64,000 bases of DNA from the NCBI RefSeq assembly GCF_030013205.1, contig NZ_CP122648.1. One strand, written 5' to 3'. Positions 25,701 through 28,700 of the stretch are shown piece after piece. The position numbers were made by a program. How positions within the stretch are numbered: the first letter of the stretch is position 1; each line of letters begins with the position of its first letter. Source of the DNA: Escherichia coli. GTDB taxonomy: Bacteria > Pseudomonadota > Gammaproteobacteria > Enterobacterales > Enterobacteriaceae.

Positions 25701-28700
25701 GCTAATCTCGGTCAGGCACGCACCTATATGGCGAAGACCCTGCTGGGCGCGGCGGCGCGAAAAGCAAAACTGGAAATCATCGACAATCCGAACGACGCTG
25801 AAATGGCGATTGTTCTCGGTGATTCCATCCCGAACGACAGCGCGCTGAACGGTAAAAATGTCTGGCTGGGCGATATTTCCCGGGCAGTTGCGCACCCTGA
25901 GCTGTTCCTGAGTGAAGCCAAAGGCCATGCGAAACCTTACACTGCGCCGGTCGCTGCGACAGCACCGGTTGCCGCCAGCGGTCCGAAACGCGTAGTTGCG
26001 GTGACTGCTTGCCCGACTGGCGTAGCACACACCTTTATGGCGGCTGAAGCCATTGAAACCGAAGCGAAAAAACGTGGCTGGTGGGTGAAAGTTGAAACCC
26101 GTGGTTCTGTTGGCGCGGGTAATGCAATCACACCCGAAGAAGTCGCAGCAGCGGATCTGGTGATTGTGGCGGCAGATATCGAAGTGGATCTGGCGAAATT
26201 TGCTGGTAAACCGATGTATCGTACCTCTACCGGTCTGGCGCTGAAGAAAACCGCGCAGGAACTGGATAAAGCGGTTGCTGAAGCAACGCCGTATGAACCG
26301 GCGGGCAAAACTCAAACAGCGACCACTGAAGGTAAGAAAGAGAGTGCAGGCGCTTACCGTCACTTGCTGACGGGCGTCTCTTACATGCTGCCGATGGTCG
26401 TTGCAGGTGGTCTGTGTATCGCGCTTTCTTTTGCTTTTGGTATCGAAGCGTTTAAAGAGCCGGGTACGTTGGCTGCGGCGCTGATGCAGATTGGTGGTGG
26501 TTCAGCCTTTGCGTTGATGGTGCCGGTACTGGCAGGTTATATTGCCTTTTCCATTGCCGATCGTCCGGGTCTCACGCCGGGTCTGATTGGCGGTATGCTG
26601 GCGGTCAGCACTGGTTCTGGCTTCATTGGCGGTATTATTGCGGGCTTCCTGGCTGGTTACATTGCGAAGTTAATCAGTACGCAATTGAAACTGCCACAGA
26701 GTATGGAGGCGCTGAAACCGATTCTGATCATTCCGCTAATTTCCAGTCTGGTGGTCGGTCTGGCGATGATCTACCTGATCGGTAAACCGGTTGCTGGCAT
26801 TCTCGAAGGGTTGACTCACTGGCTGCAGACCATGGGGACTGCGAATGCGGTTCTGCTGGGGGCGATCCTCGGAGGCATGATGTGTACTGACATGGGCGGT
26901 CCGGTAAACAAAGCAGCGTACGCGTTCGGTGTGGGTCTGCTGAGTACTCAAACCTATGGCCCGATGGCGGCGATTATGGCGGCAGGTATGGTGCCACCGC
27001 TGGCAATGGGTCTGGCAACAATGGTGGCGCGTCGCAAATTCGACAAGGCGCAGCAGGAAGGGGGCAAAGCTGCTCTGGTACTGGGACTGTGCTTTATTTC
27101 GGAAGGTGCAATTCCGTTTGCTGCCCGTGATCCGATGCGTGTGCTGCCGTGCTGTATCGTGGGTGGGGCGCTGACTGGCGCAATCTCAATGGCGATTGGT
27201 GCGAAACTGATGGCACCGCACGGTGGTCTGTTTGTTCTGCTGATCCCTGGCGCGATTACGCCGGTATTGGGTTACCTGGTAGCCATTATTGCCGGTACGC
27301 TGGTGGCGGGTCTGGCCTATGCCTTCCTGAAACGTCCGGAAGTGGACGCAGTAGCGAAAGCAGCGTAATAAAAGGTGTGTTACAGGGCAGAAATTTCCTG
27401 CCCTGTAACATTTGATGCGCGCAAAGAGAATGACCGGTTTGTGAATGTAATTTTATGAATTTAAATGGTTTTATCTTTTAGTAGAAACCTGAAACCTTCA
27501 TCAAACACTAGGTGATGCTGCCAACTTACTGATTTAGTGTATGATGGTGTTTTTGAGGTGCTCCAGTGGCTTCTGTTTCTATCAGCTGTCCCTCCTGTTC
27601 AGCTACTGACGGGGTGGTGCGTAACGGCAAAAGCACCGCCGGACATCAGCGCTATCTCTGCTCTCACTGCCGTAAAACATGGCAACTACAGTTCACTTAC
27701 GCCGCCTCTCAGCCCGGTACGCACCAGAAAATCATTGATATGGCCATGAATGGCGTCGGATGTCGCGCCAGTGCACGCATTATTGGCGTTGGCCTCAACA
27801 CGATTTTCCGCCACTTAAAAAACTCAGGCCGCAGTCGGTAACCTCGCGCATACAACCGGGCAGTGATGTGATTGTCTGCGCTGAAATGGACGAACAGTGG
27901 GGCTACGTCGGTGCTAAATCACGTCAGCGCTGGCTGTTTTACGCGTATGACAGGATGCGGAGGACGGTTGTGGCGCACGTCTTCGGTGAACGCACTCTGG
28001 CCACACTGGAGCGTCTTCTGAGCCTGCTGTCGGCCTTTGAGGTCGTGGTATGGATGACGGATGGCTGGCCGCTGTATGAATCACGCCTGAAGGGAAAGCT
28101 GCACGTTATCAGCAAGCGTTATACTCAGCGCATTGAGCGGCATAACCTGAATCTGAGACAACATCTGGCAAGGCTGGGACGGAAGTCACTGTCGTTCTCA
28201 AAATCGGTGGAGCTGCATGACAAGGTCATCGGGCATTATCTGAACATAAAACACTATCAGTAAGTTGGAGTCATTACCCAAACACTAAGGTTATTTCCTC
28301 AAGGGCAGATTAATTTCTGCCCTTTTTTATTGTTCCTGTTCTGTGCATCCCGTCACAAATTCCCCGTTTTTATAATTCAGGCATTTAATCGCGTTTTGTG
28401 AGCCTGCTCAAATCTGCCCATTTTGCCTCTCTGGCGGTAATTTACTTTACGTAAAACATGCATACTATGAGCACATGTTTAAATATGAACACATGTTTAA
28501 ACCGTCTTTGCAGTATCTATATTCTTGTGGATTGACAGGGTTGGTAATTTTTTACCAGAGGACGTGCTATGCGCGAAAAGGATTATGTCGTAATTATAGG
28601 TTCGGCGAATATTGATATCGCCGGATATTCACATGAATCATTAAATTATGCGGATTCAAATCCAGGTAAAATAAAATTTACGCCTGGTGGAGTCGGGCGA

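What the first reader, a model, noticed from the sequence alone, without database searches (positions are those of the whole stretch)
28460..28505. Tandem direct repeats ACACATGTTTAAA upstream of psuK
The 13-mer (G/A)CACATGTTTAAA occurs twice in the same orientation (28471..28483 and 28489..28501), 18 bp apart and ~70 bp upstream of the psuK start. Each copy carries the palindromic core ACATGT. A partial CRP-like site, TGTGAGCCTGCTCAAA, lies at 28397..28412. This looks like a regulator operator for the pseudouridine operon, whose control is poorly characterised; YeiL or YeiI encoded nearby are candidates.
Basis: partly seen in the sequence, partly recalled or inferred. Interest (0 to 1): 0.3.

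Follow-up and report, generated by a model that had tools for sequence, protein, structure and literature searches.

The report
Predicted YeiI operator at psuK promoter
The repeat upstream of the E. coli pseudouridine-kinase gene is real and is one form of a widely conserved pair of short palindromes just after the promoter, most likely where the uncharacterised protein YeiI, a kinase look-alike with a DNA-binding domain, shuts off the pseudouridine-recycling operon.

Summary
GCACATGTTTAAA (28471-83) and ACACATGTTTAAA (28489-501) are part of an 18-bp head-to-tail repeat (17/18 identical) that ends 67 nt before psuK.

The exact direct repeat is lineage-specific. Only non-B2 E. coli and cryptic Escherichia clades have it. 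What is conserved is a pair of 10-bp palindromes, (A/G)AACAnnTGTT(T/C), 18 bp apart: O1 at 28470-79 and O2 at 28488-97.

This pair starts one base after a conserved promoter (-35 TTTACT 28441-46, 16 bp, -10 TACTAT 28463-68). That promoter lies downstream of a conserved CRP-like site (28397-412) at fixed spacing in 14 loci from six genera.

The same dual site lies just upstream of psu operons in Serratia, Yersinia, Photorhabdus, Pasteurella, Orbaceae, two beta-proteobacteria and a Firmicute-like contig. In all of these the first gene is a winged-helix + PfkB fusion homologous to YeiI and PsuK. Three psuKGT loci with no such HTH protein nearby lack the site.

Where the site is conserved, YeiL is absent and YeiI is syntenic. 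YeiI keeps PsuK's pseudouridine-contact residues but has GADD in place of the catalytic GAGD motif.

My best reading is a YeiI repressor operator on a CRP-dependent promoter, derepressed by pseudouridine. The recurrent adaptive psuK/fruA A>C SNP from the literature maps to 28443 and turns the -35 into TTGACT. No binding or transcription start data exist.

The parts
28397..28412 (.). CRP-like site TGTGAGCCTGCTCAAA (TGTGA-N6-TCAnA), predicted class I activator site centred about -70.5/-71.5
   Evidence: It matches 9 of 10 core positions of TGTGA-N6-TCACA. It is conserved in all 14 Enterobacteriaceae loci; other genera have TGTGATTCTGTTCATA. TGTGA lies at exactly -73 from the O1 start in every locus. 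CRP binding was not tested.
28441..28446 (+). -35 hexamer TTTACT of the predicted psuK promoter. Position 28443 is the site of the recurrent adaptive T>G change (A>C on the K-12 strand), which gives TTGACT.
   Evidence: The block is conserved, with TTTAC at -29 from O1 in all 14 loci. The published SNP at 2257444 A>C (PMC7518454, PMC9509342; the same change is called psuKp A>C in PMC7858067) maps here. I verified the +1978 coordinate offset with four srlR mutations. The TTGACT allele is present in 5 complete genomes.
28454..28462 (+). Conserved spacer block AAAACATGC (AAAACAyGC). It may be a third, degenerate half-site (AACA) 15 bp upstream of O1.
   Evidence: 6 of 9 columns are invariant across genera, which is unusual for a promoter spacer. 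Its function is unknown.
28463..28468 (+). -10 hexamer TACTAT, 16-bp spacer from the -35. The predicted transcription start is around 28473-28476, inside O1.
   Evidence: Conserved as TAyyAT in all loci. The wild-type promoter matches 8 of 12 consensus positions, below the scan threshold. The transcription start is inferred, not measured.
28470..28479 (.). O1: palindrome AGCACATGTT (consensus AACAnnTGTT, one mismatch)
   Evidence: The flanks are conserved and the central dinucleotide varies.
28488..28497 (.). O2: palindrome AACACATGTT (perfect match), 18 bp from O1
   Evidence: The 18-bp spacing holds in all Enterobacterales, Pasteurellaceae, Orbaceae and the Firmicute-like contig. It is 19 bp in two beta-proteobacteria.
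28466..28501 (+). This is the lineage-specific form of O1-O2.
   Evidence: Only non-B2 E. coli and cryptic Escherichia clades have the TTTAAA tail on the second copy.
28542..28557 (+). Conserved stem-loop in the psuK leader (TGGTA-N6-TACCA) just before the Shine-Dalgarno GAGGA at 28558-62
   Evidence: It folds in all 14 orthologous leaders. There is a compensatory change: T-A in non-B2 E. coli, C-G in B2 and other genera, and U.G in E. albertii.
28569..31780 (+). Regulated operon: psuK (28569-29510), psuG (29498-30436), psuT (30530-31780)
   Evidence: ORFs, RefSeq annotation of identical DNA, NCBIfam pseudouridine kinase equivalog.
35023..36111 (-). yeiI: candidate cognate regulator, with an HTH_24 winged helix (about residues 3-48) and a PfkB domain
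   Evidence: Pfam HTH_24 scores 39.8 bits against a cutoff of 21.9, plus PfkB. It is 40% identical to PsuK. The AF2 model has pLDDT 90.6 with a three-helix-plus-wing N-terminus. GAGD is replaced by GADD, while Ser30/Asn143/Lys170 equivalents are kept.
   Evidence: Pfam and NCBIfam hits. It is absent from the Citrobacter, Buttiauxella, Raoultella and Salmonella loci that keep the operator.
27511..28278 (+). IS1 insertion between fruA and psuK, with target duplication CAAACACTA at 27502-10 and 28279-87. It is context and is not needed for the operator.
   Evidence: The junction is found in only 7 of 5426 complete genomes, all swine ETEC.

Best explanation
The repeat is a two-part operator, O1 (28470-79) and O2 (28488-97). 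Each part is a 10-bp palindrome, AACAnnTGTT, and the two are 18 bp apart. The operator starts one base after the -10 hexamer of the psuKGT promoter and covers the predicted transcription start and early transcribed region.

The promoter is weak (-35 TTTACT, 16 bp, -10 TACTAT; 8 of 12 consensus matches). It is probably activated by cAMP-CRP from a class I site centred near -70.5/-71.5.

The operator is most likely bound by YeiI, a winged-helix + PfkB protein, probably as two dimers. Bound YeiI would block RNA polymerase. Pseudouridine, or pseudouridine 5'-phosphate, would bind the kinase-like domain and release it.

In many other bacteria a single HTH-PfkB protein, closer in sequence to PsuK than to YeiI, is the first gene of the operon and sits directly behind the same operator. 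That protein would be a self-regulating enzyme-repressor. In the Escherichia/Citrobacter/Buttiauxella/Salmonella group the job appears to have been split by duplication into PsuK (enzyme, HTH lost) and YeiI (HTH kept, catalytic GAGD changed to GADD).

Shown: sequence anatomy, conservation, synteny and co-occurrence, domain content, and the mapping of the published SNP. Inferred: the transcription start, CRP binding, YeiI binding, the repressive sign, and the identity of the inducer.
For: 1. Footprint. Across six genera the intergenic region is divergent except for discrete blocks: the CRP-like site, the -35, the AAAACAyGC block, the -10, O1, O2, and a hairpin plus Shine-Dalgarno. Spacing is invariant in 14 loci, with TGTGA at -73 and TTTAC at -29 from O1.

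2. Palindrome signature. In 34 half-operators the flanks are near-invariant (G8 in 34/34, C3 in 33/34) while the central 2 bp vary freely. In two beta-proteobacteria the spacing between palindromes becomes 19 bp but the N2 palindromes stay intact.

3. Association with HTH-PfkB. The dual site (2 or fewer mismatches in total, or 3 in Photorhabdus) lies immediately upstream of [HTH-PfkB]-psuG(-psuT) operons in Serratia, Yersinia, Photorhabdus, Pasteurella, Orbaceae, Aquitalea and Paludibacterium. An exact-pattern metagenome scan also recovered a Firmicute-like contig with the order TTGACA-17-TATACT, O1, O2, SD, HTH-PfkB, psuG. At that 2-mismatch threshold only three distinct background sites turned up in about 370 kb scanned, all inside coding sequence.

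4. Negative controls. Three psuK-psuG-psuT loci with no HTH, fused or nearby, have no such site.

5. Synteny. yeiI is adjacent (convergent) to psuKGT in every locus that has an HTH-less psuK and the operator. yeiL is not.

6. YeiI protein. HTH_24 scores above the Pfam cutoff and the winged-helix model is confident. The recognition-helix region SRSxVAxHIMxL is conserved from YeiI to the fused homologues. The kinase domain superposes on PsuK at rmsd 1.9 A. The PsuK residues that PMC9061257 reports for pseudouridine affinity (Asn143, Lys170) and for the catalytic conformational change (Ser30) are kept, but GAGD is GADD.

7. Promoter. The one recurrent adaptive mutation in this intergenic region (PMC7518454, PMC9509342, PMC7858067) maps to the third base of the proposed -35 and improves it to TTGACT.

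8. Operator position. In the fused operons O2 ends 2-5 nt before the start codon, with promoter hexamers just upstream. The site therefore cannot be an upstream activator site there.
Against: - There is no experimental binding, transcription start or expression data for YeiI, and none could be found or generated here.
- The adaptive mutations reported are always the same -35 SNP and never yeiI loss of function (PMC9509342 Suppl. Data 7). Other repressors (frlR, dgoR, srlR) are hit by loss-of-function mutations in the same experiments. If YeiI were a simple repressor, knock-outs might have been expected. One explanation is that the inducer is already present in the gut and promoter strength is limiting.
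- Xenorhabdus has the fused operon but only a rearranged palindrome, CATGTTcaAACATG. The second site in Salmonella is decayed.
- Half-sites centred only about 6 bp apart are short for many HTH dimers.
- The promoter scanning tool does not call the proposed promoter (8/12). It calls TTTAAA-16-TATATT at 28496-28523 instead. If that promoter is used in E. coli, O1 would lie upstream of it.
- The negative-control genomes could encode a YeiI-like protein elsewhere.
- PsuG and PsuK proteins are strongly RecA-dependent under ciprofloxacin (PMC11039860). This model does not explain that.
Confidence: 0.62

Rival explanations
1. A YeiI-family protein binds O1-O2 but acts as an activator or dual regulator, for example by recruiting RNA polymerase to the downstream promoter-like element TTTAAA-16-TATATT (28496-28523) when pseudouridine is present.
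For: The scan tool's only hit in this stretch is that downstream promoter, whose -35 is the TTTAAA of the second repeat. Adaptive evolution never hits yeiI by loss of function (PMC9509342), which fits an activator.
Against: The downstream promoter is not conserved outside non-B2 Escherichia. In the fused operons the operator abuts the start codon, leaving no room for a downstream promoter. The adaptive SNP improves the upstream -35.
Confidence: 0.12
2. YeiL, the neighbouring CRP/FNR-family regulator, binds the repeats or the CRP-like site and controls psuKGT.
For: yeiL lies next to psuT in E. coli. It has cNMP-binding and Crp-type HTH domains. The upstream TGTGA-N6-TCAAA site is of the type that family recognises.
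Against: yeiL, rihB and nupX are absent between psuT and yeiI in Citrobacter, Buttiauxella, Raoultella and Salmonella, yet both the operator and the CRP-like site are conserved there. yeiL is absent from the fused operons that carry the same operator. The AACAnnTGTT pair does not resemble a 5-N4/6-5 CRP/FNR site. yeiL is a pseudogene in strain CFSAN018748, which has an identical promoter region.
Confidence: 0.05
3. A known nucleoside-catabolism repressor binds the site. DeoR is the main candidate, through the inner TGTT-N8-AACA 16-mer (28476-91). CytR and LexA are alternatives.
For: TGTTTAAATATGAACA matches 11 of 16 positions of the DeoR palindrome TGTTAGAATTCTAACA as I recall it. The operon is a nucleoside-salvage operon. 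PsuG and PsuK levels depend on RecA under ciprofloxacin (PMC11039860).
Against: 11 of 16 is weak. In beta-proteobacteria the inner spacing becomes N9 while the N2 palindromes stay intact. The motif's distribution follows HTH-PfkB across phyla. The best LexA-box match has 3 of 8 core mismatches, and there is no CytR half-site.
Confidence: 0.05
4. No dedicated regulator is involved. The repeat is a local 18-bp duplication, a chance event, or an RNA element of the 5' leader.
For: The 17/18 tandem form is lineage-specific and looks like homogenisation or duplication. By itself it is only about 9% unlikely per window. The region is predicted to be transcribed.
Against: The palindrome pair is conserved from Firmicute-like to proteobacterial operons, with invariant half-sites and no covariation. 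Stems of 4-5 bp would be marginal as RNA structure. The pair is absent where no HTH protein is present.
Confidence: 0.05

Closest known systems
BlaI / MecI / CopY winged-helix repressors and their TACAnnTGTA dyads (from my knowledge of the family; not tested here)
   Same: The operator geometry is the same: an xACAnnTGTx 10-bp palindrome, two dyads per operator, overlapping the promoter or transcription start. Repression is by a winged-helix dimer.
   Different: The protein family is different (Penicillinase_R versus HTH_24 + PfkB). The outer bases differ (AACA/TGTT versus TACA/TGTA). Signal input there is by proteolysis or metal, not by a kinase-like nucleoside-binding domain.
Enzyme-fold transcription regulators: BirA, NadR, and NagC/Mlc (ROK family)
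   Same: An HTH is fused to an enzyme or enzyme-like domain that senses the pathway metabolite. The fused HTH-PsuK of Serratia, Pasteurella and others would be a bifunctional enzyme-repressor like BirA. YeiI would be a catalytically altered paralogue like NagC or Mlc.
   Different: The sensor fold is PfkB/ribokinase. No solved structure shows this HTH+PfkB architecture. I found no characterised example in the searchable literature.
Class I CRP-dependent promoters (for example malT, with CRP at -70.5; from knowledge)
   Same: A TGTGA-N6-TCAnA site at a fixed distance upstream of a weak -35, centred about -70.5/-71.5 from the predicted start.
   Different: The transcription start and CRP binding have not been measured for psuK. 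The E. coli right half-site is TCAAA (4 of 5).
DeoR operator TGTTAGAA.TTCTAACA of nucleoside catabolic operons
   Same: The outer TGTT-N8-AACA bases match, and the operon is also a nucleoside-salvage operon.
   Different: Only 11 of 16 positions match. The conserved unit here is AACA-N2-TGTT. The inner spacing is not conserved (N8 versus N9).

Membership tests
Sigma-70 promoter | -35 and -10 hexamers at 16-18 bp spacing, upstream of a mapped transcription start | tested here: inconclusive
   TTTACT-16-TACTAT matches 8 of 12 consensus positions, below the scan threshold. It is conserved in position and sequence in 14 loci. The recurrent adaptive SNP raises the -35 to TTGACT. No transcription start data were available.
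CRP binding site (class I) | TGTGA-N6-TCACA palindrome centred near -61.5, -71.5 and so on | tested here: met
   9 of 10 core positions match at 28397-412. The site is conserved, and other genera have TGTGATTCTGTTCATA. Its distance from the promoter is fixed. The centre is at -70.5/-71.5 for a start at 28475/28476. CRP binding itself cannot be tested with these tools.
Repressor operator overlapping the promoter | A conserved palindromic site overlapping the -10/+1 region, co-occurring with its cognate transcription factor | tested here: met
   O1 starts 1 nt after the -10. Half-sites are invariant and the centre is variable. The site co-occurs with HTH-PfkB in about 20 loci and is absent from 3 loci without one. 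Binding and the sign of regulation were not tested.
Winged-helix DNA-binding protein (YeiI) | A recognisable wHTH domain with three helices and a beta wing | tested here: met
   Pfam HTH_24: E=3e-10, 39.8 bits against a cutoff of 21.9. The AF2 model has H3-14, H20-27 and H31-43 plus a beta hairpin, with pLDDT about 82-95.
Active PfkB kinase (YeiI) | GAGD anion-hole / catalytic-base motif | tested here: not met
   YeiI orthologues from E. coli, Buttiauxella, Citrobacter and Salmonella have GADD, plus N250D, V251S and T252F (PsuK numbering). PsuK and all fused HTH-PfkB proteins keep GAGD. The catalytic Asp is retained, so residual activity is not excluded.
Pseudouridine-binding PfkB (YeiI) | The PsuK residues Ser30, Asn143 and Lys170 (per PMC9061257: Asn143/Lys170 for substrate affinity, Ser30 for the conformational change) | tested here: met
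   All three are conserved in YeiI and in every homologue aligned. The fold superposes on PsuK at rmsd 1.9 A. Ligand binding was not tested.
YeiL (CRP/FNR) regulon member | Co-occurrence of the site with yeiL, and a CRP/FNR-type dyad | tested here: not met
   yeiL is absent from loci that keep the site. AACAnnTGTT is not a 5-N4/6-5 dyad.
DeoR operator | The 16-bp palindrome TGTTAGAATTCTAACA | tested here: not met
   Only 11 of 16 positions match. The inner spacing varies between N8 and N9 across taxa.
LexA (SOS) box | CTGT-N8-ACAG | tested here: not met
   The best match in 28380-28570 has 3 of 8 core mismatches.

The most novel reading that the evidence does not exclude
YeiI founds an uncharacterised class of transcription factor: a winged helix fused to a PfkB pseudouridine-kinase fold. 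In most lineages one protein would be both the pathway's first enzyme and its repressor, in the manner of BirA, binding a dual AACAnnTGTT operator that makes up almost the whole 5' leader. In Enterobacteriaceae a duplication would have split it into PsuK (enzyme) and YeiI (pseudouridine sensor and repressor with a disabled GADD site). This would assign a function to an E. coli y-gene. It would also explain mechanistically why the -35 T>G change at psuK is one of the most repeatable adaptive mutations of K-12 in the mouse gut and in long-term stationary phase.
Probability: 0.5. Interest if true: 0.6.

Novelty: new variant of a known kind. Interest (0 to 1): 0.5.

Why it matters
1. Control of pseudouridine catabolism in E. 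coli has no described regulator in the annotation or the literature I could search. RefSeq still names YeiI a 'putative sugar kinase', and PMC9061257 (2022) describes its function as unknown.

2. This analysis gives a specific, cheaply testable model: a promoter, a CRP site, a two-palindrome operator and a named regulator.

3. It suggests a transcription-factor architecture (HTH + PfkB) with no solved structure and no characterised example that I could find.

4. It gives a mechanistic reading of a highly repeatable adaptive SNP (a -35 up-mutation) seen in several evolution studies.

5. It is relevant to strain engineering for pseudouridine production, where psuK, psuG and psuT are routinely manipulated.

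Tried and rejected
- Extra copies in the window. Scans for the 13-mer, for TGTTY-N6-GAACA and for RAACAYRTGTTY found only chance-level hits. The one perfect GAACACATGTTT, at 12072, lies inside a coding region.
- Other intergenic regions of the yei cluster (psuT-yeiL, yeiL-rihB, rihB-nupX, nupX-yeiI, nfo-yeiH, yeiH-yeiE, setB-fruB). None has an AACANNTGTT site with 1 or fewer mismatches. No wider local regulon and no autoregulation site for yeiI were found.
- BLAST of the 42-bp operator against 5426 E. coli genomes gave one place per genome and no paralogous operator at that sensitivity.
- Exact-pattern metagenome scan. 79 of the 80 loci returned look like random AT-rich matches. Only L044 was informative, so this is not a clean enrichment test.
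- Literature. Searches for psuK promoter, YeiL + pseudouridine, yeiC/yeiN regulation, YeiI, pseudouridine repressor, yeiC + CRP, pseudouridine regulon, and pseudouridine kinase + helix-turn-helix found no described regulator. An in-vitro CRP footprint paper does not list a psuK site in its main table. I tried to reach TSS-mapping papers but hit the paper cap.
- Sigma-54 reading of TGGCA-N6-TTGCC near the start codon. Rejected because the spacing is off by one in most taxa, E. coli has TGGTA...TACC, and the compensatory pattern fits a hairpin instead.
- PDB searches by sequence and by fold found no HTH+PfkB structure.
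Full report
**Context.** The window is E. coli DNA with the gene order fruB-fruK-fruA, IS1, psuK-psuG-psuT, yeiL (minus strand), rihB, nupX, yeiI (minus strand), nfo, yeiH, yeiE. The fruA-psuK spacer is 422 bp in K-12. Here it carries a 768-bp IS1 (27511-28278) with the target duplication CAAACACTA. That junction occurs in only 7 of 5426 complete E. coli genomes, all swine ETEC. The 290 bp upstream of psuK is otherwise near-identical to K-12 and is identical across the repeats.

**Observation.** The repeat is really an 18-nt unit in direct tandem, TATGAGCACATGTTTAAA followed by TATGAACACATGTTTAAA. 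It is the only direct repeat of 12 nt or more at close spacing in the window, but about 9% of Markov-simulated windows contain one. Sequence alone therefore does not establish function.

**Phylogenetic footprint.** I fetched psuK loci from Escherichia clades, E. albertii, Raoultella, Buttiauxella and Citrobacter, and added B2 E. coli ST131 and Salmonella. Alignment of the upstream regions shows divergent DNA interrupted by conserved blocks:
- a CRP-like site, TGTGA-N6-TCAnA (28397-412);
- TTTACT (28441-46);
- AAAACAyGC (28454-62);
- TACTAT (28463-68);
- two copies of AACAyrTGyT (28470-79 and 28488-97);
- a stem-loop plus Shine-Dalgarno just before the ATG.

The spacing is rigid. TGTGA lies at -73 and TTTAC at -29 from the first palindrome in all 14 loci.

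Outside non-B2 E. coli and the cryptic Escherichia clades, the second copy is followed by CTCTAAT rather than TTTAAA. The central dinucleotide of each palindrome also varies. So the 13-mer/18-mer direct repeat and the ACATGT core are lineage-specific appearances of a deeper feature, which is two AACAnnTGTT palindromes 18 bp apart.

**Promoter.** TTTACT-16 bp-TACTAT is a weak sigma-70 promoter (8 of 12 matches, so one search did not list it). Three things support it:
- It is conserved.
- The CRP-like site would be centred at -70.5/-71.5 from a start at about 28475/28476, which is a class I position.
- Published experimental evolution points to it. The psuK/fruA intergenic A>C change at 2257444 (NC_000913.2) recurs in most mouse-gut lines of K-12 (PMC7518454, PMC9509342). 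An A>C change called 'psuKp' arises in three of four long-term stationary-phase populations (PMC7858067).

I verified the coordinate offset (+1978) with four srlR mutations from the same table. The SNP maps to window 28443, where it converts TTTACT to TTGACT. It is therefore a -35 up-mutation. The same allele is fixed in a few K-12 laboratory lineages and in one pigeon isolate.

**Who binds.** In Citrobacter, Buttiauxella, Raoultella and Salmonella, yeiL, rihB and nupX are missing. psuKGT is followed directly by a convergent yeiI, then nfo and yeiH. The operator is conserved there, which argues against YeiL.

YeiI has an N-terminal HTH_24 winged helix and a PfkB domain. It is 40% identical to PsuK. 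Its AlphaFold model is confident (pLDDT 90.6), with a three-helix-plus-wing N-terminus and a kinase domain that superposes on E. coli PsuK at 1.9 A. No PDB entry has this two-domain architecture.

**Distant homologues.** HTH-PfkB proteins in Serratia, Yersinia, Xenorhabdus, Photorhabdus, Pasteurella, Orbaceae, Aquitalea and Paludibacterium are each the first gene of an [HTH-PfkB]-psuG(-psuT) operon. They are closer to PsuK (57-60% identity) than to YeiI.

A simple scan for two AACANNTGTT sites at 17-19 bp spacing finds a hit immediately upstream of the operon in seven of these eight. It finds one upstream of psuK in all the Enterobacteriaceae loci; the second Salmonella site is decayed, so that pair was identified from the alignment. 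At the 2-mismatch threshold only three distinct background sites appeared in about 370 kb, all inside coding sequence.

In the fused operons O2 ends 2-5 nt before the start codon, and promoter hexamers lie just upstream. Examples are Paludibacterium (TTGACC-17-TAGTAT, 3 nt, then O1) and Serratia, Yersinia and Photorhabdus (TTTACT -35). In the two beta-proteobacteria the palindromes are 19 bp apart, which identifies the N2 palindrome as the recognised unit rather than the inner TGTT-N8-AACA.

An exact-pattern scan of metagenomes was mostly noise. It did recover a Firmicute-like contig with TTGACA-17-TATACT, AACAAATGTT-N8-AACAAATGTT, AAGGAGG, then an HTH-PfkB (31% identity) and psuG.

Three psuK-psuG-psuT loci with neither a fused HTH nor a nearby yeiI (Aeromonas, a 'Bartonella sp.' replicon and a Pasteurellaceae MAG) have no such site.

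The pooled matrix of 34 half-operators gives (A/G)AACAnnTGTT(T/C) with near-invariant flanks.

**Subfunctionalisation.** The HTH region (REKQIL...SRSxVAxHIMxLMxKGxIKGKGYIL) is conserved from YeiI to the fused proteins. YeiI orthologues keep the PsuK residues that PMC9061257 reports for pseudouridine affinity (Asn143, Lys170) and for the catalytic conformational change (Ser30). They replace the PfkB GAGD motif by GADD and alter the three preceding residues. PsuK and all fused proteins keep GAGD. This fits an ancestral enzyme-repressor that was split into PsuK (enzyme) and YeiI (sensor and repressor).

**Mechanism proposed.** cAMP-CRP activates a weak promoter. YeiI bound at O1-O2, which covers about -6 to +23 relative to the predicted start, blocks RNA polymerase. 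Pseudouridine or its 5'-phosphate releases YeiI. The sign of regulation, the ligand and the transcription start are inferences.

**Difficulties.**
- Adaptive evolution never inactivates yeiI.
- Xenorhabdus has only a rearranged palindrome.
- The half-site spacing is short, although the geometry resembles the TACAnnTGTA dyads of BlaI, MecI and CopY (from my knowledge, not tested).
- A lineage-specific promoter-like element, TTTAAA-16-TATATT, overlaps O2.
- PsuG and PsuK are strongly RecA-dependent under ciprofloxacin (PMC11039860), yet there is no LexA box.

**Rivals.** YeiL, DeoR/CytR/LexA, and an RNA or chance element were each tested against sequence and distribution, and each is unlikely.

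**Novelty and limits.** Within the searchable literature and the RefSeq annotation I found no description of a psuK regulator or of YeiI function. I could not check curated regulon databases such as RegPrecise or RegulonDB, where a comparative prediction may already exist. The kind of element, a repressor operator on a CRP-dependent catabolic promoter, is ordinary. The predicted regulator architecture and the enzyme/regulator split are the interesting part.

Noticed in passing
window 27511-28278 (target duplication at 27502-10 and 28279-87): A complete IS1 (insA/insB ORFs at 27566-28263) sits between the fruA terminator and the psuK control region, 119 bp upstream of the CRP-like site. This junction is present in only 7 of 5426 complete E. 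coli genomes, all swine ETEC, so the window comes from that clone. The fruA/psuK spacer is a known hot spot of adaptive change, but a terminator-like hairpin (28301-24) lies between IS1 and the promoter.
   Followed up: partly
window 28443 (K-12 NC_000913.3 position 2259422): The recurrent adaptive psuK/fruA A>C SNP of mouse-gut and long-term stationary-phase experiments is a -35 up-mutation (TTTACT to TTGACT). The same allele is fixed in the laboratory K-12 lines ER1821R, ER2683, S17-1 and ST18 and in one pigeon isolate. My unverified guess is that it pays off in rph-1 (pyrimidine-limited) K-12 strains by boosting salvage of uracil from pseudouridine.
   Followed up: partly
window 28542-28562: A conserved 5-7 bp stem-loop lies directly before the psuK Shine-Dalgarno sequence. 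It shows a compensatory change: TGGTA/TACCA in non-B2 E. coli, TGGCA/TGCCA in B2 E. coli and other genera, and U.G in E. albertii. In four Citrobacter/Raoultella loci it also resembles a sigma-54 -24/-12 element (TGGCA-N6-TTGC), but that reading fails in the other taxa.
   Followed up: partly
window 27384-27410 and 28301-28324: Two similar GGGCAGA...TCTGCCC hairpins follow fruA. The second has a T-run and is called terminator-like. They share the repeat CTGCCC(T/A)TTTT with 28413-24. The IS1 is inserted between them.
   Followed up: no
psuK/psuG (window 28569-30436); literature PMC11039860: PsuG and PsuK proteins are up to 64-fold lower in recA mutants than in wild type under ciprofloxacin in several clinical E. 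coli isolates, alongside classic SOS proteins. No LexA box is present in the control region (best match has 3 of 8 core mismatches). This RecA dependence is unexplained. It may be indirect, through RNA turnover or lysis releasing pseudouridine.
   Followed up: partly
L021 (E. coli ST131, NZ_CP093011.1) versus the window: About 2060 of 5422 E. coli genomes carry a yeiI allele only about 81% identical to the window's. B2 strains also have a divergent psuK upstream region resembling E. albertii, and nupX is reduced to a remnant. This suggests an old allelic replacement or recombination across the psuK-yeiI segment.
   Followed up: partly
L002 (strain CFSAN018748), 11569-12267 and 13438-14687: In the genome whose psuK promoter region is 100% identical to the window's, yeiL has an internal stop and nupX is frameshifted. 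Both ORFs are intact in the window.
   Followed up: no
L019 5960-6000 (Xenorhabdus): The fused HTH-PfkB-psuG-psuT operon of Xenorhabdus has a TTTACT -35 but lacks the dual site. It has a single inverted arrangement, CATGTTcaAACATG (TGTT-N2-AACA), instead. Xenorhabdus genomes also carry two HTH-PfkB paralogues (363 and 355 aa).
   Followed up: no
window 12072-12083: A perfect GAACACATGTTT, identical to O2 and its flanks, lies inside a 364-aa ORF on the minus strand. It has no partner site and is probably chance.
   Followed up: yes
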